A stretch of DNA of 64,000 nt from Clostridia bacterium (GTDB lineage: Bacteria > Bacillota > Clostridia > UBA1212 > UBA1255). The position numbers and the translations under genes are program-made. Shown here in pieces: positions 17,121-56,523 of this stretch. Location of the stretch: NCBI GenBank assembly GCA_017517275.1, contig JAFWZX010000038.1:388-64387 (forward strand), given 5' to 3'. Each line of letters begins with the position of its first letter. Positions within the stretch are counted from its first letter, which is position 1. The notes beneath the pieces were generated by a model. The model was not told the DNA's origin, searched no databases, and worked only from the letters and a program-made list of their open reading frames with translations.

Positions 17121-18362
17121 TCAGAATAACAATATCAGGAACTGTGATACCAGTACTACTGCAATCAATGCAATAGGATACGTTGCAGCATAAGCTGCAG
17201 CAACGTCTTCCGTCTTAGCTACGTTAATGAGCGTACCCAGAGCCGGAGTACTTGTCATACCGCCTGTAATAGAACCAAGGTTATTGAGCAAGCTTAATTT
17301 GAGAACGTATTTTGCAAAAATATAGCCTACAATCATAGGGAAGATTGTCATGATTACACCGTAGATAAAATACGTAAGATTGAACAGTTCAATAAATTTA
17401 GCCCCGCCTGCAATACCGGCACCGATTAAGAATAACATCAATCCAAGTTCACGGAACACCTTAAGAGTATGCTCATCAGGCATAATAGAGATCTTGCCGA
17501 TTCGGTTGAAATGACCGAAGATAAGAGCTATCAGCAAACATCCTCCTGTTGTTGTCAATGAAAAGGTAGTGCCGCTTAATCCGTTTCCTGTAAGAGGAAT
17601 CTTTATAGCACCGACAAAAACACCTATAATGGCTGCCAGTGAAAAGGCTGCAAAACCAAATCCGTCAATGTGAATTAATTTGCCGTTGTAAATCTTTTGT
17701 TTACCCTCAGATACTAAAACGAGCTTCTTACGTTCATCGTCCATATTTGCCTTAGAAAACTTAGGCATAAGCTGTACAAATAATACAACGCCTATAACAC
17801 CGAAGATGTATGCAATACCGTGTCCCACAGATACAAGATTCTCAAGTTCAGGAGCAACAGTGTCCTTTGCCGCGGAAAATGCCGGTGTAGAAGTCAATGA
17901 ACCGGATAAAAGGCCTACAATCATAGCTGTAAATCCGTCGTTATCAAGTCCTCCTGTACCAACAGCTCTGCCAATATATATACATGCTATAGCAGAAACA
18001 CCGCCTGCAAGTATTACTATGAGACCCAAAAGTACGTAAGACTTAAAATTCTTTTTCATGTTTCCGAAGAATTTAGGTCCTGCGATAAAACCAACTGAAG
18101 TAACAAATAAAATCAATCCGAAAGTCTCAACTAATTTAAGCGATTTACCTATATCCATTCCGTTTGCTGTTAAATTCTCCTGAAGCTGAGTGTAGAACAA
18201 GCAACCAAATAATAAAGCTATAATAAATACGCCGGCTGTACCAAGAGATACACCCTTAATTGTAACCCTGCCAAGTAGATAACCAACAGCAGCAATCGCA
18301 AATACACAAAAAAGCAAGAATGCAACACCGTTTACGGTTATTACTCCTCCAAATAAATTCAT
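17121..18362 (-). CDS. AAE-family (AspT/YidE/YbjL, Asp-Al_Ex duplication) transporter; putative C4-dicarboxylate (succinate) exporter
   Basis: The product is 413 aa with two homologous halves of ~5 TM helices each. The N-terminus LGRVTIKGVSLGTAGVFIIALLFG is typical of the YidE/YbjL family. There is no central TrkA_C domain. Confidence 0.7.
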   Translation of the reverse strand: MNLFGGVITVNGVAFLLFCVFAIAAVGYLLGRVTIKGVSLGTAGVFIIALLFGCLFYTQLQENLTANGMDIGKSLKLVETFGLILFVTSVGFIAGPKFFGNMKKNFKSYVLLGLIVILAGGVSAIACIYIGRAVGTGGLDNDGFTAMIVGLLSGSLTSTPAFSAAKDTVAPELENLVSVGHGIAYIFGVIGVVLFVQLMPKFSKANMDDERKKLVLVSEGKQKIYNGKLIHIDGFGFAAFSLAAIIGVFVGAIKIPLTGNGLSGTTFSLTTTGGCLLIALIFGHFNRIGKISIMPDEHTLKVFRELGLMLFLIGAGIAGGAKFIELFNLTYFIYGVIMTIFPMIVGYIFAKYVLKLSLLNNLGSITGGMTSTPALGTLINVAKTEDVAAAYAATYPIALIAVVLVSQFLILLF

Positions 18363-18390: not shown

Positions 18391-19986
18391 TTACTTTCTC
18401 CTGTAATCAGGAAGCAGCTTAGGTGATACTGCATCTGTATCAAGGCCGGCTGCTTTAATTTCATTTTCGAATGCTTCAACATGTGCAAGAGTAAGCGTAC
18501 CCACTTGAACATCTTTACATTTTGCAGCTGCACTCTTACCTGCACTACGGCCAAACACAATAATATCGAGAAGTGAATTACCCATAAGCCTGTTTCTACC
18601 GTGTATTCCTCCCACTGCCTCACCTGCAACGAAGAGATTCTCTACGTTTGTTGTCATACAGTCAGCACTGATATCAAGACCGCCATTCTGATAATGAAGT
18701 GTGGGATAGACAAGAATCGGTTCTTTACGGATATCAATACCGTATTTACCAAACATACGCATCATAGCAGGAATTCTCGCTTCGATAGTGCCTTCTCCTC
18801 CGATTTTCTCAATCATAGGCGTATCAAGCCATACTGCAAGGCCGCTGCCTGTATCTATTCCGTTGCCTCTTGTGGAGCATTCACGAATAATGGAAGCTGC
18901 TGAAACGTCACGAGTTTCTAACGGATGCATAAATGCTTCGCCGTTTACGTTAATAAGTTTAGCGCCAAGAGATCGAACTTTCTCTGTAACCAAAGCACCA
19001 AAAATTTGTTCAGGATATGCGGCGCCTGTAGGATGATATTGAAGTGTATCTGCATAAAGGAGCTTTGCGCCGACACGGTAACCCAATACTAAACCGTCAG
19101 CGGTAGCTCCGTAATGGTTTGAGGTAGGGAATCCCTGGTAATGCATACGACCTGCACCGCCTGTTGATATAATAACTGTCTTTGCTTTAGCAACAAGCAG
19201 TTCTTTTGTCTCCATGTTAAGGAGAACTGCACCTGCAGCATTTCCTTTATCATCTAAAATCAGCTCTATTGCAGCAGTAAAATCAACTACCGGAATACCG
19301 CGATTGAGAACCTCATCACGAAGTGTACGCATAATCTCAGCACCCGAATAGTCTTTTGCAGCGTGCATACGCTTTCTTGACGTACCGCCGCCGTGTGTTG
19401 TAATCATGTTGCCTTCTGCATCTTTATCAAACTCAACTCCAAGATCGTTAAGCCATTTAATAGCATCAGGAGCATCACAAACGAGTTTTGATAAAAGCTC
19501 ACGTTTAGCAGCATAGTGACCGCCGCCAAAGGCATCTACAAAGTGAATTGCAGGAGAGTCATTTGCTTTATCTGCGGCCTGTATACCACCTTCTGCCATC
19601 ATTGTGTTGGCATCTCCGATACGAAGCTTTGTTACGATCATAACGTTAGCCCCAGCCTCATGAGCTTCGATTGCAGCTGAAGAGCCTGCGCCGCCGCCAC
19701 CGATAACAAGTACATCTACGTCATAATCAGGTTTATCAAGGTTAACACTGTCTGCGGTGATACGGCTGTGAGCCTGCAAAATCGCAGCCAATTCAACCGG
19801 TACCTTTTCACCTTTATTAGGACCGATCTTTAGCTCTGTAAATTGATCTTCTTTATAATCCGGATGATATGCCTTAAGCAAATCTTCTTTTTCCTGAGCC
19901 GTCATACGACGCGGTTCTAATTTTATATTATTCTCTCTTGCTGCCTCAACAGCCTTTAAGGATTCTGCAAATCTTTCAGGATACAT
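18391..19986 (-). CDS. fumarate reductase/succinate dehydrogenase-type flavoprotein (FrdA/TfrA-like, soluble)
   Basis: It has the FAD dinucleotide fold DVLVIGGGGAGSSAAIEA. The FrdA active-site counterparts are present: QYHPTG, TEKVRSLGA (Arg), LHYQNGG and HGRNRLMGNSLLD. Where SdhA/FrdA have the FAD-linking His (SHTVAAxGG), this protein has ANTMMAEGG. It also has a ~95-aa N-terminal extension. Confidence 0.8.
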   Translation of the reverse strand: MYPERFAESLKAVEAARENNIKLEPRRMTAQEKEDLLKAYHPDYKEDQFTELKIGPNKGEKVPVELAAILQAHSRITADSVNLDKPDYDVDVLVIGGGGAGSSAAIEAHEAGANVMIVTKLRIGDANTMMAEGGIQAADKANDSPAIHFVDAFGGGHYAAKRELLSKLVCDAPDAIKWLNDLGVEFDKDAEGNMITTHGGGTSRKRMHAAKDYSGAEIMRTLRDEVLNRGIPVVDFTAAIELILDDKGNAAGAVLLNMETKELLVAKAKTVIISTGGAGRMHYQGFPTSNHYGATADGLVLGYRVGAKLLYADTLQYHPTGAAYPEQIFGALVTEKVRSLGAKLINVNGEAFMHPLETRDVSAASIIRECSTRGNGIDTGSGLAVWLDTPMIEKIGGEGTIEARIPAMMRMFGKYGIDIRKEPILVYPTLHYQNGGLDISADCMTTNVENLFVAGEAVGGIHGRNRLMGNSLLDIIVFGRSAGKSAAAKCKDVQVGTLTLAHVEAFENEIKAAGLDTDAVSPKLLPDYRRK

Positions 19987-19998
19987 GAAACTACCTCC

Positions 19999-20673
19999 TT
20001 ATTTTTCAATATCTCTGTGATTGTAAAGCTCTTTAATCTCATCTACCGGCTTATTCATAAGGGCCTCGATAAGATCTGTGAATGTTCCGTCTTTAATCTC
20101 TTGTACTCTGTTCTCAAGATGAGCTGACTTAGGAGCAAGATATTTGCCGTTAAGTCTGCGCGCAAGCATTGCCACTTGAGGATGTGAGATTCCGGCAGGA
20201 CAACGTGATGAACATACGCCGCACATTACACAGTCAAATGATTCTTCTGCGCATTTCTCGTATTCTCCTCTTTGAGCGTATGCAATGTACTGCATTACGT
20301 TAAGATCCTGTGTACAACTCTTTGTACAAGCATTGCAACCGATACAAGCATAAATCTCAGGATAGAGTTGCATCATTATCTGTTCTGTAGGCTTTACTTC
20401 TTCAATGTTATATACTTCTTTAACAAGGGGGAAGAAAGGAAGTGTTGCAATATACATGTTGTCTTCTACCTTTGTTTGACAAGCAAGACATGCTTTTAAC
20501 TCTTTATCTCCTTTGATTCGATAAATCGTTGCGCACGCACCGCAAAATCCGTTACGGCATCCACAACCACGCACTAACTGATATCCTGCATATTCCATAG
20601 CAGTCATGATTGTAAGGTTCTCCGGCACTGTATATTTTTTACCGAATAAAAATATATTTACCATATTTTCCAT
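19999..20673 (-). CDS. iron-sulfur subunit, FrdB/SdhB-like (2Fe-2S + two Cys-cluster motifs)
   Basis: It has an N-terminal plant-ferredoxin-like motif (CGCRNGFCGAC...C), followed by CIGCNACTKSC and CVMCGVCSSRCP. The product is 224 aa. Confidence 0.75.
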   Translation of the reverse strand: MENMVNIFLFGKKYTVPENLTIMTAMEYAGYQLVRGCGCRNGFCGACATIYRIKGDKELKACLACQTKVEDNMYIATLPFFPLVKEVYNIEEVKPTEQIMMQLYPEIYACIGCNACTKSCTQDLNVMQYIAYAQRGEYEKCAEESFDCVMCGVCSSRCPAGISHPQVAMLARRLNGKYLAPKSAHLENRVQEIKDGTFTDLIEALMNKPVDEIKELYNHRDIEK

Positions 20674-20693: not shown

Positions 20694-21527
20694 TTAATAC
20701 TCATCAGGTAATTCTTCTAACTGGTCACAGCGGAATACCGGGCCGTCTTTGCAAACGTATTTTGAGCCAATATTACATCTTCCGCATTTGCCCACTCCGC
20801 ATTTCATGCGAAGCTCCATCGTTGTGTAAACCTGCTGTTTGTTGTAGCCCATAGAAATAAGGCCTTCTAACGTAAATTTAATCATTATCGGTGGGCCGCA
20901 GATAATTACTGTCTTATTTGTATCGAAATTAAGTTCTTTTACATAATTTGGTACGAATCCAACGTGTCCGTCCCAGCCTTCTTGTTCACGGTCGATAGTA
21001 AGGTGAACGTCAATACCGTCATCTTCCATCCACTCGTTAATGATTTCCTGATAATCTACCAGATCATCTTTACTTCTTGAACCATATACTATGTCAATCT
21101 TGCCGTATCTGTCTCTGTAGTGTCTGCAATAATTGATTACAGAACGTAGCGGTGCAAGGCCGATACCACCGGCAACAAACAGAAGATCTTTTCCCACAAA
21201 TGCGTCATCTACAGGGAACGGATTGCCGTAGGGACCTCTGATTGTTATTTGTTGTCCTACTTCTGCTTGGTGAAGCCACTCAGTAACACATCCGCATTTC
21301 TTTATTGAAAATTCCATATATTCTGTATTTGTAGGCGCAGACGTTATTGAAAACATTGCCTCGCCTACGCCCGGAATAGAAAGCATCGCGCATTGTCCGG
21401 GTTTATGGTCAAAAGCCTTCTTGCCATCCGGAGTGACAACTCGGAAAGTCTTAACATCCGGAGTATCTATACGTACGTCGGTAATCACACCGACTTTCGG
21501 AATCAAAGCTTCGTAATTAACGTCCAT
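20694..21527 (-). CDS. FAD/NAD(P)H-binding oxidoreductase with C-terminal 2Fe-2S (PyrK/AsrB/HydG/FlxA-like)
   Basis: It has an FNR-like fold with a GGIGLAP nucleotide motif and an FSITS flavin motif. The C-terminal motif is CGVGKCGRC...C. Confidence 0.8.
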   Translation of the reverse strand: MDVNYEALIPKVGVITDVRIDTPDVKTFRVVTPDGKKAFDHKPGQCAMLSIPGVGEAMFSITSAPTNTEYMEFSIKKCGCVTEWLHQAEVGQQITIRGPYGNPFPVDDAFVGKDLLFVAGGIGLAPLRSVINYCRHYRDRYGKIDIVYGSRSKDDLVDYQEIINEWMEDDGIDVHLTIDREQEGWDGHVGFVPNYVKELNFDTNKTVIICGPPIMIKFTLEGLISMGYNKQQVYTTMELRMKCGVGKCGRCNIGSKYVCKDGPVFRCDQLEELPDEY

Positions 21528-21528
21528 A

Positions 21529-22545
21529 TCATTCTTCTCCTAACTTCTTCATAACTTTAACAATATTCATTGAGATCGGGCATTTAGCCAAACATCTTCC
21601 GCAACCGACACAGCCAAAAATGCCTTCGTTGTTTTCCGGATAATATACAAGCTTGTGCATAAATCTCTGACGAAACCGCTCTACCTGGGAATTTCTTGAA
21701 TTACCGTGAGCCATTTTCGTAAAGTCTGAATACATGCAGGAATCCCAACAACGGAAACGAATGACGCCATTGCCTGTATCATAATCTTTTATATCATAGC
21801 ACTGACAAGTAGGACATACAAACGTACAAGTACCACAGCCTAAGCAAGCTTGTGACAACTCTTTCCATGCCGGAGAATTAAAGAATTCATTTGTTTTTCC
21901 GCCACCGAATTTCTCAGCGGAAAGATTCGCAAGAGGCAATCTTTCCATGATTCTGCGGGTCTTGTCTTGCTGAGCTGAAACTGCGCTGTCATCACATTCT
22001 TCAGTAAGACCGTCTAATTTAGCCAGCAATTTCTCTCCTTTGTCTGTATTTGCACGCATATATATACTGTCTTGTGTTTTCCAACAAGTAATATCACCGG
22101 CAGGATTTGCAGCATCAATATCAAACGTACCGCAAAAACACGTCTCTGCAGGTCTTGTACATGCCATAGAAATAATAACACTATGTGCTCTTCTATTTGC
22201 ATAATAGCTGTCAATAGGTTCTGAAAGGAAAACTCTGTCTAATATGTCAAAGCTTCTTACGTCACAGGCGCGAACACCAAATACAACAAAGTCTTCATTT
22301 TCATTTCTAACGTCAATGATATCAATCTGTTTTCCCGTTACTTTAAACTCTATTAAATTCTCAGTCTGCGGGAAGAAGAAATCTTTTGCGCTACGTACAG
22401 TATTAAGAGCGTCGCTCATCTGAACTCCGGGCTCCCAAAGCTTGTAGTTACTGCCGTTTTCACCGTCAACAGGCAGATAAAGCTTCTCATCTGCAGCAAT
22501 CTTTGCAAATATTGTATCTAATGCTTGTATTGAAAATTTACGCAT
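21529..22545 (-). CDS. Fe-S protein, AsrA/HydB/FlxB-like
   Basis: It carries CLGCGTCTFVCPTCQC and CVGCGRCLAKCP, plus the conserved WDSCMYSDFTKMAHGNSR block typical of AsrA-type subunits. Confidence 0.7.
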   Translation of the reverse strand: MRKFSIQALDTIFAKIAADEKLYLPVDGENGSNYKLWEPGVQMSDALNTVRSAKDFFFPQTENLIEFKVTGKQIDIIDVRNENEDFVVFGVRACDVRSFDILDRVFLSEPIDSYYANRRAHSVIISMACTRPAETCFCGTFDIDAANPAGDITCWKTQDSIYMRANTDKGEKLLAKLDGLTEECDDSAVSAQQDKTRRIMERLPLANLSAEKFGGGKTNEFFNSPAWKELSQACLGCGTCTFVCPTCQCYDIKDYDTGNGVIRFRCWDSCMYSDFTKMAHGNSRNSQVERFRQRFMHKLVYYPENNEGIFGCVGCGRCLAKCPISMNIVKVMKKLGEE

Positions 22546-22549
22546 ATTC

Positions 22550-23536
22550 TCACACTCCTCTGCCTACAGCTTCGCCGGGTTCAAGATCGTCAAACGTATA
22601 ATTGATAAGAGGTGCTCTGGAGCCTTCCTCCTGTCCTGCCTGGTAATCACCGTAGAAACTGTTAATGTCTTTAATGAACTTTCTGTTGAGCAAGTGAAGC
22701 GGAATTCCCTGAGGACATACTCTTGAGCATTCACCACAGTCCGTACATCTTCCGGCAACGTGGAATGCACGTATGATATGGAACATTTTTTCTTCAAAGC
22801 TGTCAGAAATCGCCTTGTTGTTTACGCTGGATTTCGGATTATCGAAAACACACTTTTCACACGTACACGCGGGGCAAATATCACGGCAAGCGTTACATCT
22901 TATGCATTTTGACAGTTGGCTTTGCCAGAAAGCAAAGCGCTCGTCTGCTGACATTTTTTCGATTTTTTCAACTTCGTCGAAGCGATTTGAATCAATTACG
23001 TCGCCTTCTTCACCCATAAGCTCGTCGTATACAACGTGTTTTTTGCTCTTACAGCTAAGACATCTTTCTGTAAGAACGTCTCCGTATGCAAGTGTCTTTT
23101 CTTCCTCGTAAAGATTCTTTACCGTAATAGAACCTTCACCTGGTATAACATCAATAATGCCCTCTCCGGCAAGAGCTTTAATCTTGCCGATATCTAACAT
23201 ACCTTCACAAGGAATGCCTACTGCATATACTTTTTCTCTTGAGAAACGGTGTTCTGTAAGAAGTTGGTTAAAGCTATAAGTGTCGCAGGGTTTTAAGAAT
23301 ACAAGCACCTTCTCTTCTGCTTTGCGCGTTTCTGCTATAAGATATTTTGAAAAATTAGCATTGCAAAAGTCATCAAAGATAAAATCTTTTTGAAGGTCTT
23401 CTTTTGTTGTGAAAACTGCCGGAGTTACGTCGTATGCAAACTCACCGATCTTCCAACCAAGAACTCTGCTCACAGTGCCGTTATCTAACAGTTCAATTGC
23501 TTTGTTTATGAGATTTTCCCGAGTTATCTTTTGCAT
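22550..23536 (-). CDS. Fe-S protein, FlxC-like (two 4Fe-4S binding motifs)
   Basis: It carries CIRCNACRDICPACTCEKC and CTDCGECSRVCP. The product is 328 aa, and its start overlaps the mvhD-like gene by 13 nt. Confidence 0.65.
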   Translation of the reverse strand: MQKITRENLINKAIELLDNGTVSRVLGWKIGEFAYDVTPAVFTTKEDLQKDFIFDDFCNANFSKYLIAETRKAEEKVLVFLKPCDTYSFNQLLTEHRFSREKVYAVGIPCEGMLDIGKIKALAGEGIIDVIPGEGSITVKNLYEEEKTLAYGDVLTERCLSCKSKKHVVYDELMGEEGDVIDSNRFDEVEKIEKMSADERFAFWQSQLSKCIRCNACRDICPACTCEKCVFDNPKSSVNNKAISDSFEEKMFHIIRAFHVAGRCTDCGECSRVCPQGIPLHLLNRKFIKDINSFYGDYQAGQEEGSRAPLINYTFDDLEPGEAVGRGV

Positions 23537-23961
23537 CTTAAGTCCTCCAATCTCTTATTTTCACCTAACGCAGCTACAGTCTGAGTAAAATCATTCATTG
23601 TTGCTGCAAATTTAGCACCCTCGGCAGCGGATACCCATTCTACACGTGTACGTTCTTTCTCAATACCAAGATATTCCAACATGGAGAATAACAGTGCCAT
23701 TCTTCTTCTGGTGTAATAGTTTCCTGACGTATAATGACAATCTCCCGGGTGGCAACCGCAAAGAATTACGCCGTCTGCACCGCGTTGGAAAGCACGCAAT
23801 ATAAACATTGGATTTACTCTGCATGAGCAAGGTACTCTAATAATCTTTACATTTTCAGGATATGCAAGACGATTGCTACCTGCAAGGTCTGCACCTGCAT
23901 ATGAACACCAGTTACAACAAAAAGCCACAATCTTAGGCTTATATTCACTATTTATCGACAT
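23524..23961 (-). CDS. mvhD: MvhD/FlxD-type iron-sulfur protein (methyl-viologen-reducing hydrogenase delta subunit family)
   Basis: It carries KIVAFCCNWCSYAGADLAG ... VPCSCRVNP ... DGVILCGCHPGDCHY, the canonical MvhD Cys pattern. The product is 145 aa. Confidence 0.88.
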   Translation of the reverse strand: MSINSEYKPKIVAFCCNWCSYAGADLAGSNRLAYPENVKIIRVPCSCRVNPMFILRAFQRGADGVILCGCHPGDCHYTSGNYYTRRRMALLFSMLEYLGIEKERTRVEWVSAAEGAKFAATMNDFTQTVAALGENKRLEDLRCKR

Positions 23962-25946
23962 ATTGCATCCACCTCCGCAATGATCTGAGCACTTTCAAAA
24001 CCGTTAAGGTCCATAGCGCCTGAAGGACAAGCTACCGTACATGCACCGCAACCTTGGCAGACAGCCGGATTGACAGATGCAACACGTCTTATGGCAGTAG
24101 TTCTGTTTGGCATACGGAACTCTTTGTCAATATATGAAATAGCACCGTAAGGACAAACGTTTGCACAAGATGAACAGCCGTTGCACATAAGCTCGTCAGC
24201 GTGTGCAACACATGGATTACTTGTAAGCTTATCTTTTGCAAGCAATCCGATAACTTTAGCTGCAGCTGCACTTGCCTGTGATACAGTTTCCGGAATATCC
24301 TTAGGTCCCTGACACGTACCTGACAGGAAAACGCCGGCAGTCGGACTCTCAACAGGACGAAGCTTTGGATGCGCTTCTGTGAAAAAGTCGTTTGTGTCCA
24401 TACTTGCAGTGAGCATTGTTGCGATTGATCTAGCTGATTTGTCAGGCTCTATTGCAGCAGCTAAAACAACCAGATCTGCTTCTATATGAAGTTGTTTATT
24501 TGCGAGAAGATCAGAAGCCTGAACCATAAGCTTATCGCCCTGAGGTGATACCTTGCCTACCATCCCCTTGATATAATGAACACCATATTCTTCTACCGCA
24601 CGACGATAGAACTCGTCGAAATTTTTACCGGGTGTACGAACGTCTATGTAGAATACGTAAACGTCAGTATCAGGATATTTATCTCTGGTGAGCATAGCGT
24701 GCTTTGCAGTGTACATACAGCAAATCTTTGAACAATATTCCTTGCCTTTGTCTGCACATGCAGCGCATCTTGAACCAACACACTGTACAAAAACGATAGT
24801 ATGAGGATGCTTTCCGTCAGAAGGACGAAGAAGCTTTCCTGCTGTGGGACCTGCCGCATTTGTAAGACGTTCGAATTCCAACGATGTAATAACGTCCTTC
24901 GACTGGTTATATGCATATTCATCAAATTTATCAAGGCTGATAGGGTTAAAACCTGTAGCTGCTACGATTGCACCGTACTGCTCTTCGATGATCTCATCTT
25001 TTTGTGTATAATCAATAGCGCCTGCCGTACATACCTTGGCACAAAGTCCGCACTTTCCTGTCTTAAGCATTGTACAATAGTCTGCATCAATAGTTGCAAC
25101 CTTAGGTACTGCCTGAGCAAAAGGAATATATACAGCTCTTCTGTTATCCATACCAAGGTTAAATTCGTTAGGCACCTTTTTCTGTGGACACTTCTCTGTA
25201 CAGATACCGCAACCCGTACATACATCCTCTTTTACAAAGCGAGCTTTTTTCTTTATTTTTACATTAAAATTACCAACAAAACCTTTTACTTCCTGAACTT
25301 CACTATATGAGAAAATTCTGATATTTTCGTTTTGTGCAACGTCAACCATCTTAGGTGTGAGAATACATGCCGCACAGTCAAGTGTCGGGAACGTTTTGTC
25401 AATCTGTGCCATCTTACCGCCGATTGTAGGTTTCTTCTCCACGATATCAACAGGAAAACCTGCTTCTGCGATATCTAAAGCTGTCTGAATACCTGCAATG
25501 CCGCCTCCGATTACGAGAGCTCTTTTTGTAACCGGAGTCTGACCAGGAATAAGAGGCGCGTTGAGATTTACTTTTGCAACTGCAGCGCGGCCTAATATAA
25601 TAGCTTTCTGAGTACCGGTCTCCATATCTTTGTGAATCCACGAACATTGTTCTCGGATATTGGCAATCTCTACCATATACGGATTAAGGCCGGCGGCCTG
25701 TGCTGTCTTACGGAATGTGGCTTCATGCATTCTCGGAGAACATGAACATACGACAACACCTGTTAACTTGTGTTCTTTAATAGCTTCCTTAATAATCTCC
25801 TGTCCCGCCTGTGAACACATGTATTGATAATCTGTGGAAAAGACAACACCGGGTTCACTTCTAAGAGCCTCAGCTACAGCCTTAACATCTACAGTACCTG
25901 CGATATTACTACCGCACCAGCATACGAATACACCAATTCTTTGCAT
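23952..25946 (-). CDS. hdrA: heterodisulfide reductase subunit A-like flavoprotein (HdrA)
   Basis: It has an N-terminal Cys domain (IGVFVCWCGSNIAG) and the FAD fold ALVIGGGIAGIQTALDIAEAG. An inserted ferredoxin domain (CTGCGICTEKCP, CGLCAKVCTAGA), CVGSR and a C-terminal 2x4Fe-4S domain (CNGCSSCANVCP, CQGCGACTVACP) are also present. The product is 664 aa. Confidence 0.9.
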   Translation of the reverse strand: MQRIGVFVCWCGSNIAGTVDVKAVAEALRSEPGVVFSTDYQYMCSQAGQEIIKEAIKEHKLTGVVVCSCSPRMHEATFRKTAQAAGLNPYMVEIANIREQCSWIHKDMETGTQKAIILGRAAVAKVNLNAPLIPGQTPVTKRALVIGGGIAGIQTALDIAEAGFPVDIVEKKPTIGGKMAQIDKTFPTLDCAACILTPKMVDVAQNENIRIFSYSEVQEVKGFVGNFNVKIKKKARFVKEDVCTGCGICTEKCPQKKVPNEFNLGMDNRRAVYIPFAQAVPKVATIDADYCTMLKTGKCGLCAKVCTAGAIDYTQKDEIIEEQYGAIVAATGFNPISLDKFDEYAYNQSKDVITSLEFERLTNAAGPTAGKLLRPSDGKHPHTIVFVQCVGSRCAACADKGKEYCSKICCMYTAKHAMLTRDKYPDTDVYVFYIDVRTPGKNFDEFYRRAVEEYGVHYIKGMVGKVSPQGDKLMVQASDLLANKQLHIEADLVVLAAAIEPDKSARSIATMLTASMDTNDFFTEAHPKLRPVESPTAGVFLSGTCQGPKDIPETVSQASAAAAKVIGLLAKDKLTSNPCVAHADELMCNGCSSCANVCPYGAISYIDKEFRMPNRTTAIRRVASVNPAVCQGCGACTVACPSGAMDLNGFESAQIIAEVDAICR

Positions 25947-25960
25947 TTGTCTTTCCCTCC

Positions 25961-26359
25961 TTATTTATGATATTTTCTTAAAGCACTTACGATAGCCTGC
26001 TGCGGCAGATCCTCTTCTACCATTGCAGGAATACTGTCAGGCTTCATATGATTTGCGCCTTGTTTACGAATTACCTCAAGACGTACGGCTTCAACTAATT
26101 TTGCAGGTTCAACGCCTCTCGGGCATCTGTCCACACATGCAAAGCATGTAAGACACTGGTACAGCGAATTGCTGTTCATAAGAGGCTCGATGTCTCCGCT
26201 CTCTACCATGTACACAAATTGATGCGGATGATATTCCATAGTATCAAATGCAGGACACGTAGCCGTGCATTTACCGCAGCGCATGCATTTTACCGGATTA
26301 ACACCGCTTCTGCGTATAATCTCGCTGCGAACGTTGTCATTCTTGTTATGCATTTGCAT
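25961..26359 (-). CDS. hdrC: heterodisulfide reductase subunit C-like (2 x 4Fe-4S)
   Basis: It carries CMRCGKCTATCP and CLTCFACVDRCP. The product is 132 aa. Confidence 0.85.
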   Translation of the reverse strand: MQMHNKNDNVRSEIIRRSGVNPVKCMRCGKCTATCPAFDTMEYHPHQFVYMVESGDIEPLMNSNSLYQCLTCFACVDRCPRGVEPAKLVEAVRLEVIRKQGANHMKPDSIPAMVEEDLPQQAIVSALRKYHK

Positions 26360-27137
26360 CCTCCTTTACTCCAAATGCTTCTGCCATAAGCTCTGTGAAA
26401 TATACAACGGGAATAGGACTTCCGTTTTTCTCCAGGTTGTATTTGCAAAGCGGGCATGCCGTTACAATCAGGTCAGCGCCGCTGTTATAAGCACTTTCTG
26501 TTACTTTATGACTTCTCAAAGCGGAAAACTCAGGATTTTCAAGAGTTATATAGCCGCCGCAACATTCATTTCTTTCTGAATATATTACAGGCTCTGCACC
26601 AAGCGCCCTGATAAGATCTTCCATAATAGTAGGATTTTCAGGATCATCTGTATGCATAACACTGTTTGGACGAAGTAGCAGGCAACCGTAATAAGCCGCA
26701 ACTTTTTTGCCTGCAAGTGAATTTATTACCTTCTTCGCAACATTGTCGTATCCTACTTTGTCTCTTAATAGCTCAAGATAGTGAAGTATCTCGGTAGTGC
26801 CGTCATACTCTTCACCTTTGCCAAGATAATTGTTGACACGTTGTGCAAATTCAGCGTCGTTTTGCATCGCGTAATTCGTCTGCTTGATAACGTTGTGGCA
26901 AGCAGAACAAACAGTCACCAGAACATTGTTGTTTTTCTTGGCAGCAGATAAGGCTCTTACGGATGAAAGTTTGGTTGCCACTTCGTCGCGTGAGGTAGTA
27001 AATACGCCGCCGCAGCACTGCCAATCTTCAACCTCTTCAAGAGAAACGTCAAGTATTTCAGCGCACTTCCTTGCATATCTGTCAAGCTCTTTTGCTTTTG
27101 TTTTTAATGTACAGCCCGGAAAGTATGCCACCTTCAT
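26346..27137 (-). CDS. hdrB: heterodisulfide reductase subunit B-like (two CCG domains)
   Basis: It has two Cx(n)CCGx(n)CxxC units: PGC...QCCGG...CSAC and YGC...ECCGG...CPLC. The product is 263 aa. Confidence 0.85.
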   Translation of the reverse strand: MKVAYFPGCTLKTKAKELDRYARKCAEILDVSLEEVEDWQCCGGVFTTSRDEVATKLSSVRALSAAKKNNNVLVTVCSACHNVIKQTNYAMQNDAEFAQRVNNYLGKGEEYDGTTEILHYLELLRDKVGYDNVAKKVINSLAGKKVAAYYGCLLLRPNSVMHTDDPENPTIMEDLIRALGAEPVIYSERNECCGGYITLENPEFSALRSHKVTESAYNSGADLIVTACPLCKYNLEKNGSPIPVVYFTELMAEAFGVKEDANA

Positions 27138-27156: not shown

Positions 27157-28533
27157 TTAAACCATCTGTTCAGGATGGAAAACTTCATCAAATTTTTCTG
27201 CTGTAAGGAAGCCAAGTTCTACGCATGCTTCTTTAAGCGAAATATTATCTTTAAATGCTTTTTTTGCTGTCTTAGCGGCATTTTCATATCCGATATACGG
27301 ATTAAGAGCCGTAACAAGCATTAATGAATTATGCAGATTATGGTGCATTTTTTCCTTATTAGCCTTGATACCTACTGCACAATTCTTATTGAAAGACAGA
27401 ATTGCTTCTGCTAAAAGTCTTGCCGACTGTAAAAAATTGTAAATACATACCGGCATAAATACGTTGAGTTCAAAGTTTCCTTGGGAAGCTGCCATGCCAA
27501 CGGCTACGTCATTTCCCATAACCTGAACGGCAACCATTGTAACGGCTTCACACTGTGTCGGATTAACTTTTCCGGGCATAATTGATGATCCCGGTTCATT
27601 TTCCGGAATATAAATCTCTCCCAATCCGTCTCTGGGTCCGCTTGCAAGCCACCTTACGTCATTTGCGATTTTCATCATGTCGCAAGCAAGAGCCTTAATA
27701 GCTCCATGAGCAAATACTATCTCATCTTTTGATGTAAGTGAATGGAACTTATTGGCAGCTGTTACAAAGGGCTTGCCGGTAAGACCTGCAACCTCAGCTG
27801 CCACAACCTCACCAAAGCCTTTTGGTGCATTCAAGCCTGTACCTACAGCAGTACCGCCTAATGCCAGTTCACAAAGTGGTGCGATAGAACGTTCAATAAG
27901 CTCGACGTCTTTTTCAAGACTTGATCTCCAGCCGCTTATTTCCTGGCTAAAAGTAATAGGTGTTGCATCCTGTAAATGGGTTCTGCCGCTTTTTACAATA
28001 CCTTCGTTCTCTATTTCAAGGTGTCTGAAAGTATCAATTAATGTACGTGCAGCCGGAATAAGCTTATTTTCAAGCATCAAAACAGCTGCAATGTGCATAG
28101 CAGTAGGGAAAGTATCATTCGAAGACTGACTCATATTAACGTCATCATTTGGGTGCAGAAGCTTTTTACCTGCAATCTCATTACCTCTGTTGGCGATTAC
28201 TTCGTTAGAGTTCATATTAGATTGAGTTCCGGAACCGGTTTGCCATACAACTAAAGGGAAATTATGGTTCTGTTTACCTGCAATAATCTCGTCACAAGCA
28301 GTAGAAATAGCAACCAGCTTTTCTGACGTCATCTTTTCCGGACGAAGCTTATGGTTAGCCTGGGCCGCTGCCTTTTTCAGTATTCCGAACGCATGGATAA
28401 TCTCCATAGGCATTGTTTCAATATTAACACCAATTTCAAAATTCTCGTGACTTCTTTGTGTTTGGGCTGCCCAAAGCTTATCGGCAGGTACTCTTACCTC
28501 GCCCATAGAGTCATGTTCGATACGATATTCCAT
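27157..28533 (-). CDS. fumC: class II fumarate hydratase
   Basis: It has the signature [16 protein letters not shown], plus [12 protein letters not shown] and THLQDA. The product is 458 aa. Confidence 0.93.
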
Positions 28534-28566
28534 TTTTAATCCTCCCGTAATCTCTGTGAAAATTAC

Positions 28567-29499
28567 TTAAATCTCAACGCTTGCTATCGTTGCTTTGAGA
28601 GCATCTGCACTCTTTTGAAGTTGCGCAATCTCATCGTCAGTAAGCGGAATGTCCACTTTACTCTTAACACCGTTGCGATCAATAATATTAAGAGTACTAA
28701 GGCAAACATCACTGATACCGTACTCACCGTTCATCATTGTTGATACAGGAAGAACAGTAGGCACACCGTCAATAATAGCTCTGCATATTGCACATACAGC
28801 AATTGAAATTGCATAATATGTAGCACCTTTGCGCTCAATAACCTTTCCGCCTGCTTTACGAACGTACTCTTCTGCTTCCTCGCGATTAAGCTCGTAATCA
28901 ACGTCGAAAGCTTTGCTGCACTGATCCAACGGAATACCGCAAATATTTGCATTTGACCACGGAACAAATGATGAGTCGCCATGTTCGCCCAATACGTAAG
29001 CATGTACGTTTTCATGTCCAATCTCATATTTTTCTGAAAGATACGCACTAAGACGTGCTGTATCGATTGTATTACCGGAACCAATTATTCTGTTGAGCGG
29101 GATACCGGAACACTTGCAGAATGCATATGTAAGTACGTCTACAGGATTGCTTACCAAAACGTATATTGCCTCAGGAACACGACGTGTAATTTCCGGAATA
29201 ACGCTCTTTAAAATGTCAATATTAACCTGAGCAAGTTCAAGTCTTGATTGACCGGGTTTTCTGCCCACACCGGATGTGATAATAACAATATCTGAACCTA
29301 TAGCATCATCATACGTGCCACCATAAATTTTTCCTGGATTACAGAAAAAGATACCTTGTTCGATATCCAGCGCTTCGCCCTCAGCTCTTGCTTGATTAAT
29401 ATCAATAAGAACGATTTCCGATGAGAGACCGGAAACAACTAATGAGTGTGCAATTGTTGCGCCAACCTTTCCACTTCCGATAATTGTAATTTTGTTCAT
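28567..29499 (-). CDS. mdh: LDH-like malate dehydrogenase (L-2-hydroxyacid dehydrogenase, Arg at the substrate-discriminating position)
   Basis: It has the Rossmann motif KITIIGSGKVGAT and a catalytic His in GEHGDS. The substrate loop GVGRKPGQSRLEL has Arg where LDHs carry Gln (..NQKPGETRLDL). Confidence 0.8.
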   Translation of the reverse strand: MNKITIIGSGKVGATIAHSLVVSGLSSEIVLIDINQARAEGEALDIEQGIFFCNPGKIYGGTYDDAIGSDIVIITSGVGRKPGQSRLELAQVNIDILKSVIPEITRRVPEAIYVLVSNPVDVLTYAFCKCSGIPLNRIIGSGNTIDTARLSAYLSEKYEIGHENVHAYVLGEHGDSSFVPWSNANICGIPLDQCSKAFDVDYELNREEAEEYVRKAGGKVIERKGATYYAISIAVCAICRAIIDGVPTVLPVSTMMNGEYGISDVCLSTLNIIDRNGVKSKVDIPLTDDEIAQLQKSADALKATIASVEI

Positions 29500-54765: not shown

Positions 54766-56523
54766 TTACATTGCGTTTACGCGGTTGCAAAGAGCTTCGT
54801 ACTGAGCCTTGATCTCTGCAGGGAGCTTTTCGAAGCGAGCAAGGTGTGCCTTCTGGTCTTCGATTTCCTGGAGCCAAGCATCCTTGTCGATGGAAAGAAG
54901 GTTCTCAAGAACTTTCTCATCAACTTCACAGCCTTCAAGATCAATGTCCTTAGCATAAGGCAGATAACCGATAGCAGATTCGCGTGCATCAACTGTACCG
55001 TTACATCTTGCAAGAATCCAAAGAAGAACTCTGAGATTGTCGCCAAATCCCGGCCAAATGAAGTTTCCTTCATCATCAAGACGGAACCAGTTAACGTTGA
55101 AGATCTTAGGCGGGTTAGGAATCTTCTTGCCCATTTCAAGCCAGTGAGCAAAATATTCACCCATATTGTATCCACAGAAAGGAAGCATAGCCATAGGATC
55201 TCTTCTTACTACGCCAACAGCACCCGTAGCAGCTGCAGTTGTCTCAGAAGCCATTGTAGCACCAACAAACACACCGTGTTCCCAGTTAAATGACTGATAT
55301 ACCAACGGAGCAACTTTAGCACGTCTACCACCAAAGATCATTGCTGAAATCGGTACACCTGCAGGATTCTCCCACTCCTTAGAAATGCAAGGACACTGAC
55401 AAGCAGGAGCTGTAAATCTTGAGTTAGGATGAGCAGCCTTGGTCTCCATATCAGGAGTCCAATCGTTGCCTCTCCAGTCAAGAGCCTTCGTCGGTGCAGG
55501 AACACCCATCTTCTCCCACCAAATCTTCTTATCCGGTGTAAGTGCAACGTTTGTGAAAATTGTATTAGCTTTGCATGTGAGTAAAGCGTTAGGATTGGAC
55601 TTCATACTTGTTCCCGGAGCAACGCCGAAGAATCCTGCTTCAGGGTTAACTGCCCACAGTCTACCATCACTGCCAATTCTGAGCCATGCAATATCATCGC
55701 CGACAGTCCATACTTTATAGCCAAGCTTCTGATATTTCTCCGGAGGAATAAGCATAGCCAGGTTAGTCTTACCGCAAGCACTGGGGAAAGCGGCTGATAC
55801 GTATTGAACATTTCCGTTAGGATCTTCTACACCAAGAATAAGCATATGTTCTGCCATCCAGCCTTCCTTACGTCCGAGCCAGCTTGCAATACGAAGAGCA
55901 AAGCACTTCTTACCAAGAAGAACGTTTCCGCCGTAGCCTGAACCAAATGACCAGATACTATTGTCCTCAGGGAAGTGGCAAATAAATCTTCTTTCCGGAT
56001 TAACGTCGCCTCTTGCATGCAGACCCTTGATAAAGTTAGGAGAATCTCCCAACATATCCATAGCAACCTTACCCATTCTTGTCATAATTCTCATGTTAAG
56101 AACAACGTAGATACTGTCTGTAATCTCAATACCAACCTTGCTGAACTCTGAGAACGCAGGTCCCATGATATAAGGAATAACGTACATCGTACGACCTTTC
56201 ATTGATCCTGTAAAATAAGTACCTAATTTTGCATACGCAGCGCTCTTCTCCATCCAGTTGTTAGTCGGACCTGCATCTTCTTTATGTTCAGTACAAATGA
56301 AAGTAAGGTGCTCAACTCTGGCAACGTCATTTTCAGCTGTTCTGTGATATAAACATCCGGGATATTCCTGTTGATTTAATTCAACTAATTCGCCTGTAGC
56401 TACAGCTTCTGCTGTGAGGCGGGCTTTTTCTTCTTCTGAGCCGTCGAGCCAAACAATCTTATCAGGCTGTGTCATATTAGCCATCTGCTCTACCCACTCA
56501 TTAACATATACATTCTTGTACAT
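54766..56523 (-). CDS. pckG: phosphoenolpyruvate carboxykinase (GTP)
   Basis: At 585 aa it has the length and blocks of GTP-PEPCK: FPSACGKTN (kinase-1a P-loop), WLGRKEGWMAEHMLI, GDDIAWLR and NWFR. It does not look like the ATP-type PckA. Confidence 0.88.
   Translation of the reverse strand: MYKNVYVNEWVEQMANMTQPDKIVWLDGSEEEKARLTAEAVATGELVELNQQEYPGCLYHRTAENDVARVEHLTFICTEHKEDAGPTNNWMEKSAAYAKLGTYFTGSMKGRTMYVIPYIMGPAFSEFSKVGIEITDSIYVVLNMRIMTRMGKVAMDMLGDSPNFIKGLHARGDVNPERRFICHFPEDNSIWSFGSGYGGNVLLGKKCFALRIASWLGRKEGWMAEHMLILGVEDPNGNVQYVSAAFPSACGKTNLAMLIPPEKYQKLGYKVWTVGDDIAWLRIGSDGRLWAVNPEAGFFGVAPGTSMKSNPNALLTCKANTIFTNVALTPDKKIWWEKMGVPAPTKALDWRGNDWTPDMETKAAHPNSRFTAPACQCPCISKEWENPAGVPISAMIFGGRRAKVAPLVYQSFNWEHGVFVGATMASETTAAATGAVGVVRRDPMAMLPFCGYNMGEYFAHWLEMGKKIPNPPKIFNVNWFRLDDEGNFIWPGFGDNLRVLLWILARCNGTVDARESAIGYLPYAKDIDLEGCEVDEKVLENLLSIDKDAWLQEIEDQKAHLARFEKLPAEIKAQYEALCNRVNAM

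What the first reader, a model, noticed from the sequence alone, without database searches (positions are those of the whole stretch)
18391..20673. FrdA-like flavoprotein keeps fumarate-site residues but lacks the FAD-linking histidine and carries a ~95-aa N-terminal extension
Seen: counterparts of the E. coli FrdA substrate and catalytic residues are present. These are QYHPTG (His), TEKVRSLGA (the proton-donor Arg position of TEGCRGEGG), LHYQNGG (His) and HGRNRLMGNSL (Arg). Where membrane SdhA/FrdA have R-S-H-T-V-A-A-x-G-G with the 8-alpha-FAD-linking His, this protein reads D-A-N-T-M-M-A-E-G-G (His replaced by Asn). Established: non-covalent FAD is typical of soluble fumarate reductases, TfrA and NadB, whereas covalent FAD raises the potential for succinate oxidation. 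Inference: the enzyme is tuned for fumarate reduction. The unusual N-terminal extension (MYPERFAESLKAVEAAREN...DKPDYDVD) could be a docking element for the Hdr/Flx module. The separate FrdB-like and HdrB-like genes together reproduce, in split form, the domain content of methanogen TfrB.
Basis: partly seen in the sequence, partly recalled or inferred. Interest (0 to 1): 0.6.

Follow-up and report, generated by a model that had tools for sequence, protein, structure and literature searches.

The report
Soluble fumarate reductase flavoprotein, Hdr-linked
This gene encodes the catalytic flavoprotein of a soluble, quinone-free fumarate reductase wired to an NADH/heterodisulfide-reductase module, a system already proposed for one succinate-producing Clostridium and common in gut bacteria; it carries an extra N-terminal domain and lacks the usual C-terminal domain.

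Summary
The residue observations hold, but the coordinates merge two genes. frdB-like (19999-20673) and the 531-aa flavoprotein (18391-19986) are separated by a real TAA.

Alignments with E. coli FrdA, SdhA and NadB confirm Asn127 at the FAD-linking His. The full fumarate-site set is kept: H318, T334, E335, R338, R359, H431, R466. The Arg in TEKVR matches FrdA Arg248. The true proton donor (FrdA Arg287) is R359, and it is also conserved.

The roughly 87-aa N-terminal extension is conserved and modelled at high confidence as part of the flavoprotein. It persists in natural FrdB-FrdA fusions that have no Hdr or Flx neighbours, so a role as an Hdr/Flx docking element is unlikely.

The gene sits in a strictly conserved 12-gene operon: mdh-fumC-hdrBCA-flxDCBA-frdBA-transporter. 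Its content and order match the published "succinate operon" of Pseudoclostridium thermosuccinogenes, which was proposed as an electron-bifurcating NADH:fumarate/ferredoxin reductase.

Verdict: a real, ordinary member of a widespread, hypothesised but biochemically untested enzyme family, with some family-level structural detail that I did not find described.

The parts
18391..19986 (-). frdA-like flavoprotein gene, 531 aa plus a TAA stop. It is the catalytic subunit.
   Evidence: PF00890 at 219.9 bits over residues 91-472. The best structural match is E. coli FrdA 1kf6_A (E 5e-34, TMq 0.72). The AF2 model has pLDDT 91.5 and pTM 0.92.
19726..19986 (-). N-terminal extension, residues 1-87. Model: helix 4-22, helix 30-40, short strands at 49-51 and 61-63, helix 64-70. 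Motifs: FHPDY, GPNKG and PxEL.
   Evidence: R17, L37, H41, P42, D43, G55, G59 and E65 are invariant in 24 diverse sequences (A4). pLDDT is 91-97. No Pfam hit and no PDB sequence hit (best E 0.78). No similarity to the canonical C-terminal domain (hhalign probability 1%). Found in 42 of 401 genomes of the phylum.
19606..19608 (-). Asn127 codon (AAC), at the position of the 8-alpha-FAD-linking His (FrdA His44 / SdhA His45).
   Evidence: It is invariant in the 140-sequence alignment A2.
18589..19035 (-). Span holding the dicarboxylate-site and catalytic residues. These are H318 (19033-19035), T334/E335/K336/R338 (18973-18987), R359 the proton-donor equivalent (18910-18912), H431 (18694-18696) and R466 (18589-18591).
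   Evidence: All except K336 are identical in E. coli FrdA, SdhA and NadB (A1). All are invariant in A2.
18394..18504 (-). Short C-terminal tail, residues 495-531, standing in place of the canonical helical and C-terminal domains. It ends in a conserved SPxLLPDY motif.
   Evidence: The alignment shows the PF02910-type domain is missing. L500, H502, P522, L524, L525, P526 and Y528 are nearly invariant.
19999..20673 (-). frdB-like iron-sulfur subunit, 224 aa. Cys39/44/47/65 fit a [2Fe-2S] site. Cys110/113/116/120 and Cys148/151/154/158 are two complete CxxCxxCxxxC motifs, so a second [4Fe-4S] stands where FrdB/SdhB have the [3Fe-4S]. A family-specific helical C-terminal tail of about 60 aa follows.
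   Evidence: Pfam Fer2_4 and Fer4 hits. Alignment with E. coli FrdB and SdhB and with family members. Cys positions. The gene is fused to frdA in P0121 and P0271-P0274.
20694..23961 (-). flxA (20694-21527), flxB (21529-22545), flxC (22550-23536) and flxD/mvhD (23524-23961). This is the NAD(P)H-oxidising input module.
   Evidence: Pfam hits: NAD_binding_1, FAD_binding_6 and DHODB_Fe-S_bind; Fer4_22; Fer4; FlpD. NCBIfam likeness to the HydG/AsrB and HydB/AsrA types.
23952..27137 (-). hdrA (23952-25946), hdrC (25961-26359) and hdrB (26346-27137).
   Evidence: HdrA2 model at 791 bits, HdrC, and CCG domains. HdrB has two complete CCG motifs: C9, C41, C42, C77, C80 and C152, C192, C193, C228, C231. 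HdrC has two CxxCxxCxxxC motifs.
27157..29499 (-). fumC (27157-28533) and an LDH/MDH-fold dehydrogenase (28567-29499). These are the first genes of the operon.
   Evidence: TIGR00979 fumC_II scores 712 bits against a cut-off of 664.75. The dehydrogenase scores above the L-LDH cut-offs and below the MDH cut-offs.
17121..18362 (-). AAEx (AspT/YidE/YbjL-type) transporter, the last gene. It is a candidate succinate exporter or C4-dicarboxylate exchanger.
   Evidence: PF06826 at 194.8 bits and TIGR01625. A terminator-like hairpin lies at 17088-17061 on the minus strand.

Best explanation
The gene encodes the flavoprotein (FrdA-type) subunit of a soluble, quinone-independent fumarate reductase.

Shown:
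- The protein has the FrdA/SdhA fold and the complete fumarate-binding and proton-delivery residue set.
- It has Asn where covalent flavoproteins have His.
- It pairs with a three-cluster FrdB-like subunit. The two are fused in some organisms.
- It is always encoded with Hdr-type genes, except where it occurs as a fusion.

Inferred:
- FAD is non-covalent, so the enzyme works as a reductase and not as a succinate dehydrogenase.
- Electrons enter as NADH at FlxA and pass through FlxBCD to the HdrA flavin. There the pair is split. One electron goes uphill to ferredoxin. The other goes downhill through HdrC and HdrB to the FrdB clusters and the FrdA FAD, and reduces fumarate.
- The overall reaction would be 2 NADH + Fd(ox) + fumarate -> 2 NAD+ + Fd(red) + succinate.
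- Malate dehydrogenase and fumarase, encoded upstream, supply fumarate from PEPCK-derived oxaloacetate. The last gene exports succinate.
- The N-terminal 87 residues are an integral subdomain of this flavoprotein family. They probably stand in structurally, at or near the FrdB interface, for the lost C-terminal helical domain. They are not a dock specific to Hdr/Flx.
For: Fold and residues.

Family-wide invariance of Asn127 and the catalytic set.

This is the only full PF00890 protein in the genome.

Operon:
- Gene content is given.
- The operon is conserved in 80 related loci wherever the contig reaches. This includes cultured Yeguia hominis (L074).
- A source-named Defluviitaleaceae member (L103) has the same Flx-Hdr-FrdBA order.
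- Loci L098 (source-named Chloroflexi) and L102 (unnamed) keep FrdBA next to HdrA, HdrBC and MvhD but have no FlxA. Hdr is therefore the constant partner.

Natural FrdB::FrdA fusions exist.

Genome context:
- MenA and RnfD were not found.
- A GTP-PEPCK and one [FeFe]-hydrogenase are present.

Expression: gut metatranscriptome contigs match pieces of the operon, mostly at 98-100% identity.

Literature: PMC7282089 describes an operon in P. thermosuccinogenes with the same gene count and order. That operon has a fumarase, seven Flx-Hdr genes, two FR genes and a putative succinate transporter. It is transcribed, changes about 4-fold with CO2 supply, and is interpreted as ferredoxin-reducing.

Established knowledge (recalled, not tested here): losing the FAD-linking His in E. 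coli FrdA abolishes succinate oxidation but not fumarate reduction. The NADH-to-fumarate span of about 350 mV is ample to drive ferredoxin reduction.
Against: - No biochemistry exists for any member in the literature I could search. Bifurcation, the ferredoxin partner and the HdrB-to-FrdB electron path are inferences.
- HdrB keeps both complete CCG motifs. In methanogens these form the disulfide-reducing site, so a thiol/disulfide intermediate is not excluded.
- The stand-alone fusions show that the FrdBA unit can work without an adjacent Hdr/Flx module.
- RnfD was not found. The fate of reduced ferredoxin rests on a single hydrogenase in a genome that is 80% complete.
- The AlphaFold2 model of the FrdB-FrdA read-through construct was low-confidence in the FrdB part (pLDDT 43-82, pTM 0.70). 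No coordinates were available, so the placement of the extension relative to FrdB is untested.
Confidence: 0.7

Rival explanations
1. The complex is a non-bifurcating NADH:fumarate oxidoreductase. Flx and Hdr subunits act only as an electron wire from NADH to FrdBA, and no ferredoxin is reduced.
For: All required cofactor modules for a simple wire are present. RnfD was not found in the genome, so there is no obvious route for conserving energy from reduced ferredoxin other than H2 release.
Against: HdrA is retained at full length (664 aa) and scores 791 bits on the HdrA2 model. HdrA-type genes also accompany FrdBA in the two loci that lack FlxA (L098, L102). A seven-subunit wire for a reaction that releases about 67 kJ/mol would waste energy. 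The P. thermosuccinogenes physiology was interpreted as ferredoxin-coupled (PMC7282089).
Confidence: 0.15
2. The system uses a thiol shuttle, as in methanogens. Flx-HdrABC reduces a disulfide carrier, and FrdBA (a split Tfr) re-oxidises the thiols to reduce fumarate.
For: HdrB has both complete CCG motifs. TfrA is the best-scoring NCBIfam model for the flavoprotein (334 bits). FrdB, HdrC and HdrB together cover the TfrB model.
Against: FrdB has no CCG domain, so FrdBA has no thiol-oxidising site. No carrier protein or thiol-biosynthesis gene lies in the conserved operon. Exclusive grouping with Gly-type TfrA-like proteins is rejected (p-AU 1e-4). All Tfr scores are far below their cut-offs.
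Confidence: 0.08
3. The complex runs in the oxidative direction, or acts on a different substrate. One option is confurcation, with succinate plus reduced ferredoxin giving NADH. Another is that the flavoprotein is an L-aspartate oxidase or another enoate reductase.
For: NadB shares the same His/Arg set. A sister position to NadB is not formally rejected (p-AU 0.06). The last gene belongs to the aspartate:alanine-exchanger family.
Against: - The TIGR00551 nadB score is 257 bits against a cut-off of 453.
- The position of NadB Glu121 is an invariant Gly199 here. The importance of Glu121 is recalled, not tested.
- The protein has an obligate Fe-S partner.
- The lyase in the operon is a fumarase by its equivalog cut-off, not an aspartase.
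- By established knowledge, the absence of the FAD-linking His disfavours succinate oxidation.
- A GTP-PEPCK and an exporter-type transporter fit a reductive branch.
Confidence: 0.05

Closest known systems
Fumarate reductase of the 'succinate operon' of Pseudoclostridium thermosuccinogenes (CDQ83_RS03365 to RS03315). Sources: Koendjbiharie and van Kranenburg 2019 preprint, doi 10.20944/preprints201912.0288.v1, and PMC7282089.
   Same: Gene content and order match as described in PMC7282089: a fumarase, seven Flx-Hdr genes, two fumarate reductase genes and a putative succinate transporter. The proposed function is also the same: NADH-dependent fumarate reduction that also reduces ferredoxin.
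   Different: The window's operon additionally starts with an LDH/MDH-fold gene. I could not fetch the P. thermosuccinogenes protein, so sequence-level membership (extension, Asn) is not verified. The preprint is not in the searchable library, so I do not know whether it reports the Asn, the N-terminal domain or the missing C-terminal domain.
E. coli quinol:fumarate reductase FrdABCD (PDB 1KF6) and succinate:quinone reductase SdhABCD (1NEK)
   Same: FrdA 1kf6_A is the best structural match (TMq 0.72, 30% identity). The two share the FAD and capping domains and an identical catalytic set. FrdB here has the same [2Fe-2S] motif and first [4Fe-4S] motif.
   Different: The window protein has no FAD-linking His (Asn127) and no C-terminal helical domain, and it has an extra 87-aa N-terminal domain. 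FrdB has a full second [4Fe-4S] motif in place of the [3Fe-4S], and a new C-terminal tail. No membrane-anchor genes lie in the operon, and MenA was not found in the genome.
Thiol:fumarate reductase TfrAB of methanogens (NCBIfam NF004900 and NF004898)
   Same: Both are soluble and quinone-independent and have no FAD-linking His. A true TfrA equivalog, P0202, has Gly at that position. Both are associated with HdrB/C-type CCG and ferredoxin modules.
   Different: The flavoprotein scores 334 bits against a cut-off of 718 and matches only model positions 6-426 of 546. The CCG module is a separate HdrB inside a full HdrABC, not fused to FrdB. Exclusive grouping with the Gly-type TfrA-like group is rejected.
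FlxABCD-HdrABC of Desulfovibrio vulgaris (Ramos et al. 2015, cited in PMC7282089)
   Same: The seven-gene module has the same domain content. The proposed NADH-driven flavin-based bifurcation to ferredoxin is also the same.
   Different: The high-potential acceptor proposed there is a DsrC disulfide. Here a FrdBA pair is encoded in the same operon, and no DsrC-like gene is present.
Soluble flavocytochrome c3 fumarate reductases (Shewanella Fcc3, 1QJD) and L-aspartate oxidase NadB (1CHU, 1KNP)
   Same: By recalled knowledge both have non-covalent FAD. NadB shares the active-site His/Arg set in the alignment made here; the Fcc3 correspondence is recalled. Fcc3 also has an N-terminal electron-transfer domain and no C-terminal helical bundle (recalled).
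   Different: The N-terminal extension here has no Cys or haem motif and no sequence likeness to any PDB chain. NadB has the C-terminal domain and no Fe-S partner. The NadB and flavocytochrome c NCBIfam cut-offs are not met.

Membership tests
SdhA/FrdA complex-II flavoproteins (PF00890 + PF02910; TIGR01812) | FAD_binding_2 domain with the catalytic His/Arg/Thr/Glu set | tested here: met
   PF00890 scores 219.9 bits. H318, T334, E335, R338, R359, H431 and R466 align with FrdA H232, T244, E245, R248, R287, H355 and R390.
SdhA/FrdA complex-II flavoproteins (PF00890 + PF02910; TIGR01812) | C-terminal helical domain (Succ_DH_flav_C) and a score above the family cut-off | tested here: not met
   There is no PF02910 hit. 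The protein ends 37 residues after the FAD domain, against 118-139 further residues in SdhA and FrdA. TIGR01812 scores 270.6 bits against a cut-off of 567.3.
SdhA/FrdA complex-II flavoproteins (PF00890 + PF02910; TIGR01812) | His for the 8-alpha-N3-histidyl-FAD bond | tested here: not met
   Asn127 stands at that column and is invariant in the family.
TfrA, thiol:fumarate reductase subunit A (NF004900) | Equivalog score and full-length match | tested here: not met
   The score is 334.4 bits against a cut-off of 718. Only model positions 6-426 of 546 are matched. The AU test rejects exclusive grouping with the Gly-type TfrA-like group (p = 1e-4).
L-aspartate oxidase NadB (TIGR00551) | Equivalog score, C-terminal domain and a stand-alone enzyme | tested here: not met
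   The score is 256.7 bits against a cut-off of 452.75. The protein has no C-terminal domain and is encoded with, and elsewhere fused to, an Fe-S subunit. It is not nested in the NadB clade, which has support 100. A sister position is only borderline (p = 0.06).
APS/PAPS reductase alpha subunit (AprA type) | Closest sequence or structure relatives are Apr proteins | tested here: not met
   The only sulfate-pathway reductase among the PDB hits is 8a8o, a PAPS reductase alpha subunit, at 41 bits. FrdA and SdhA chains score 164-202 bits.
Flx-Hdr-linked soluble fumarate reductase (P. thermosuccinogenes type) | frdB-frdA encoded in one operon after hdrBCA-flxDCBA and a fumarase, and followed by a transporter | tested here: met
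   It matches the description in PMC7282089. The arrangement is conserved in 80 loci.
Flx-Hdr-linked soluble fumarate reductase (P. thermosuccinogenes type) | Sequence orthology to CDQ83_RS03320/25 | not testable with these tools
   That genome could not be retrieved by name. The only genome-contig scan returned hits of at least 80% identity.
Flx-Hdr-linked soluble fumarate reductase (P. thermosuccinogenes type) | NADH-dependent fumarate reduction coupled to ferredoxin reduction | not testable with these tools
   This needs a biochemical assay. None was found in the literature searched.

The most novel reading that the evidence does not exclude
The SdhA/FrdA superfamily may contain a third, uncharacterised architecture. 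In it an 87-aa N-terminal domain is present, the C-terminal helical bundle is absent, FAD is non-covalent, and the FrdB partner carries [2Fe-2S] plus two [4Fe-4S] clusters. This unit would be the terminal module of a flavin-based electron-bifurcating NADH:fumarate/ferredoxin oxidoreductase. The family signature occurs in about a tenth of genomes sampled from this phylum. It also occurs, with other Hdr input modules, in two loci that lack FlxA, one of them named Chloroflexi by its source. If true, quinone-free gut and rumen Clostridia would gain extra energy or redox flexibility from succinate fermentation.
Probability: 0.5. Interest if true: 0.7.

Novelty: new member of a known kind. Interest (0 to 1): 0.45.

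Why it matters
Succinate is a major cross-feeding metabolite in gut and rumen communities. Textbook fumarate respiration needs menaquinone and a membrane-bound reductase.

This operon offers a cytoplasmic, quinone-free route that may couple fumarate reduction to ferredoxin reduction. The extension profile finds family members in 42 of 401 sampled genomes of the phylum. The window's own operon, or a near-identical strain's, is represented in gut metatranscriptome contigs.

The flavoprotein's unusual build gives concrete handles for testing the proposed bifurcating enzyme. These handles are the missing covalent-FAD His, the new N-terminal domain, the missing C-terminal domain and the natural FrdB fusions. 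To my knowledge from the searchable literature, the enzyme has never been purified.

Tried and rejected
1. One 761-aa protein, stop-codon read-through or selenocysteine. Rejected. The stop is TAA. In relatives the two genes share a frame in 21 of 70 loci, about the chance level.

2. The N-terminal extension as a circularly permuted copy of the canonical C-terminal domain. hhalign probability is 1%, so there is no sequence support.

3. The extension as a known domain. There is no Pfam hit. A profile search of all PDB sequences gave a best E-value of 0.78. Foldseek alignments cover only about 448-474 columns, which is the core.

4. AlphaFold2 on the window's FrdB-TAA(read as Gly)-FrdA read-through construct, to see whether the extension meets FrdB. 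The alignment combined in-frame relatives, natural fusions and unpaired rows. The FrdB part was poorly modelled (pLDDT 43-82, pTM 0.70). The tool returns no coordinates, so the test was inconclusive.

5. NadB, AprA-type and TfrA membership. The cut-offs are not met and the tree and AU tests do not support membership.

6. Aspartase instead of fumarase in the operon. Rejected by the TIGR00979 cut-off.

7. Literature search for a purified 'bifurcating fumarate reductase'. Nothing was found beyond the P. thermosuccinogenes papers.

8. The about-408-aa sister family as a characterised relative. It is uncharacterised and sits in an unrelated context in Miltoncostaea.
Full report
**What is at the coordinates**

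The finding's span (18391-20673, minus strand) holds two genes, not one. A 224-aa FrdB-like iron-sulfur protein occupies 19999-20673 and ends in TAA. Twelve bases later the 531-aa flavoprotein begins (ATG at 19984-19986; MYPERFAESL...). It ends with a TAA stop at 18391-18393. The two genes happen to share a frame. Among the 70 related loci scored, 21 share the frame, which is about the chance level. Read-through or a single fused protein is therefore excluded for this window.

**Residue check**

I compared the protein with solved structures by HMMER. I also made a MAFFT alignment with E. coli FrdA, SdhA and NadB, taken from NC_000913.3. The two agree.
- Asn127 stands at FrdA His44 / SdhA His45. 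NadB has Ser there.
- H318 = FrdA His232. T334 and E335 = Thr244 and Glu245. R338 = Arg248. R359 = Arg287 (SdhA Arg286, NadB Arg290). H431 = His355. R466 = Arg390.

The Arg in 'TEKVR' is the Arg248 equivalent. The proton-donor Arg287 equivalent is R359 in 'ETRDVSA'. It is also conserved, so the conclusion that the site is intact still stands.

These residues, including Asn127, are invariant in a 140-sequence family alignment (A2). They are also kept in all full-length representatives that carry the extension. Family-specific invariants include K336, where FrdA and SdhA have Gly, and G199, at the position of NadB Glu121.

The protein stops 37 residues after the FAD domain. It has no PF02910-type C-terminal domain. 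FrdA, SdhA and NadB have 90-139 further residues, and true TfrA has about 96. NCBIfam's TfrA model is matched only over positions 6-426 of 546. The architecture is therefore a new N-terminal domain plus the core, with the C-terminal helical domain missing.

**The N-terminal extension**

The extension is about 87 residues long. It is strongly conserved: R17, L37, H41, P42, D43, G55, G59 and E65 are invariant across 24 diverse members, giving the motifs FHPDY, GPNKG and PxEL. It contains no Cys.

AlphaFold2 with the 140-sequence alignment gives pLDDT 91.5 and pTM 0.92. Residues 1-90 score 91-97. This suggests that the extension packs against the core and is not a floppy tail.

Foldseek's best hit is E. 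coli FrdA (1kf6_A; E 5e-34, TMq 0.72, 448 aligned columns). The extension remains unmatched. A profile of the extension finds nothing in PDB sequences (best E 0.78). It has no similarity to the canonical C-terminal domain (hhalign probability 1%).

Searched over 401 genomes drawn evenly from the window's phylum, the extension profile hits 42 genomes in 32 of 278 genera. The listed hits lie at the N-terminal end of open frames of roughly 530-680 aa, apart from one truncated frame.

**Partner and context**

The window's operon runs on the minus strand from about 29499 to 17121. The genes, in order, are:
1. An LDH/MDH-fold dehydrogenase.
2. A class II fumarase (TIGR00979, 712 bits against a cut-off of 664.75).
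3. hdrB, hdrC and hdrA.
4. mvhD/flxD, flxC, flxB and flxA.
5. frdB and frdA.
6. An AAEx-type transporter.

A promoter-like site lies upstream and a terminator-like hairpin lies at 17088-17061. These are consensus matches only.

All 80 related loci from gut and rumen Clostridia keep this order wherever the contig extends far enough. They include cultured Yeguia hominis.

A family member named Defluviitaleaceae by its source has the same Flx-Hdr-FrdBA order (L103). In two further loci FrdB-FrdA sits next to HdrA-like, HdrBC and MvhD genes but without FlxA. One of these (L098) is named Chloroflexi by its source. The other (L102) is unnamed.

Five natural FrdB::FrdA fusion proteins exist (709-737 aa). 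The three fusion genes whose loci were read stand alone, with no Hdr or Flx neighbours, and all three keep the extension.

Three conclusions follow:
- FrdB is the direct partner of FrdA.
- The C-terminus of FrdB and the N-terminal extension of FrdA can be joined by a few residues, so they are likely close in the complex.
- The extension is not there to dock Hdr or Flx.

**FrdB**

FrdB has the [2Fe-2S] Cys set (39, 44, 47, 65). It also has two complete CxxCxxCxxxC motifs (110/113/116/120 and 148/151/154/158). E. coli FrdB and SdhB have the three-Cys [3Fe-4S] motif at the second site.

FrdB also has a family-specific C-terminal tail of about 60 residues. HdrB keeps both complete CCG motifs, and HdrC has two [4Fe-4S] motifs.

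**Genome context**

The assembly is 1.59 Mb and about 80% complete. It holds no other full-length PF00890 protein. No MenA, RnfD or ATP-PEPCK was found. It has one [FeFe]-hydrogenase and a GTP-type PEPCK inside this same window.

Contigs from two gut metatranscriptome runs (X25, X26) match pieces from mdh to the transporter, mostly at 98-100% identity. The operon, or a near-identical strain's, therefore appears to be transcribed in vivo. DNA carry-over in such libraries cannot be excluded.

**Phylogeny**

A quick maximum-likelihood tree was built on the core region of 62 sequences.
- The extension-bearing family lies with an uncharacterised family of about 400 aa on one side of the midpoint root (SH-aLRT 85).
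- The other side holds the clade with the C-terminal domain: NadB (support 100), SdhA/FrdA and TfrA-like proteins.

AU tests reject an exclusive grouping with Gly-type TfrA-like proteins (p = 1e-4). They do not quite reject a sister position to NadB (p = 0.06).

All curated cut-offs are missed by wide margins. This covers TfrA, sdhA_frdA, nadB and flavocytochrome c.

A bona fide TfrA equivalog (P0202, 765 bits) has Gly at the His position, and the NadB representatives have Asn or Ser.

**Mechanism**

Shown: an FrdA-fold protein with an intact dicarboxylate and proton-delivery site, no FAD-linking His, a three-cluster partner, and obligate genomic linkage to Hdr-type modules except where it is fused.

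Inferred: the FAD is non-covalent and the enzyme works as a reductase. This rests on established E. coli FrdA His44 mutant behaviour, which I recall and did not test.

Also inferred is the electron path. It runs from NADH to FlxA, through FlxBCD to the HdrA flavin, and then splits. One branch goes to ferredoxin. The other goes through HdrC and HdrB to FrdB, the FAD and fumarate.

The approximately 350 mV span from NADH to fumarate makes ferredoxin reduction thermodynamically easy. This is the model already proposed for P. thermosuccinogenes. Its 'succinate operon' has the same gene count and order and is transcribed (PMC7282089, citing the 2019 preprint).

I found no purification or assay of any member.

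Rival readings are scored in the rivals section. They are a simple non-bifurcating wire, a thiol shuttle as in methanogen Tfr, the oxidative direction, and another substrate.

**Novelty and score**

The system as a whole is already in the literature as a hypothesis, so this locus is a new member of a known kind. I did not find the following reported in the searchable literature:
- The invariant Asn at the His position.
- The conserved N-terminal domain combined with loss of the C-terminal domain.
- The all-[4Fe-4S] distal cluster motif in FrdB.
- The natural FrdB::FrdA fusions.
- The Hdr-only versions in loci without FlxA, one named Chloroflexi by its source.
- The roughly 10% prevalence in the phylum.

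I could not read the preprint itself, so some of these may be reported there. Interest is moderate at 0.45. The biology is attractive and testable, but the specific finding is a correct residue-level annotation of a member of a widespread family. Part of its interpretation, the docking role, is not supported.

Noticed in passing
window about 54787-55860 (-), equal to G000:C38:55174-56247: A GTP-type PEPCK (PF00821, 551 bits, 590-aa frame) lies in the same window. The genome has no ATP-type PEPCK. P. thermosuccinogenes likewise uses a GTP-dependent PEPCK to feed its succinate branch.
   Followed up: partly
window 28567-29499 (-): The first operon gene scores above the NCBIfam L-lactate dehydrogenase cut-offs (TIGR01771: 333 against 303.55). 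It scores below the malate dehydrogenase cut-offs.
   Followed up: no
L100:12153-12479, L105:7290-7607, L106:9548-9880: Each stand-alone FrdB::FrdA fusion gene is followed by a conserved, hydrophobic protein of about 105-110 aa with no Pfam hit. By eye it looks like three membrane helices. It may be a membrane partner or anchor of the fused enzyme.
   Followed up: partly
L104:7001-8227 (Miltoncostaea marina CP064655.1): The tree's nearest relatives, a PF00890 family of about 408 aa with neither extension nor C-terminal domain, occur in Actinomycetota. They have Pro in place of Thr244 and Asn or Lys at the His site. The gene sits next to ComA (phosphosulfolactate synthase) and ATP sulfurylase. 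This may point to a reductase acting on a sulfonated C3 acid.
   Followed up: partly
L098:455-9369 and L102:1-11620: In these two loci (L098 is named Chloroflexi by its source; L102 is unnamed) FrdB-FrdA with the same N-terminal extension follows clusters of several HdrA-like proteins, HdrC/HdrB and MvhD. There is no FlxA-type NAD(P)H module. These enzymes may use a different electron donor.
   Followed up: partly
P0001 (605 aa, from an ENA contig): This close homologue carries an internal duplication of about 75 residues. Query residues 381-458 appear twice. It is probably an assembly artefact and not a real variant.
   Followed up: no
L004:9314-9988: In this MAG the frdB gene has an in-frame TAA at codon 74 ('KVEDNM*IATLPFF'). 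It is either a sequencing error or a pseudogene.
   Followed up: no
own genome G000 (1.59 Mb, 80% complete): RnfD and MenA were not found. A single [FeFe]-hydrogenase lies at C12:13921-14778. If the complex does reduce ferredoxin, H2 formation is the only sink I found.
   Followed up: partly
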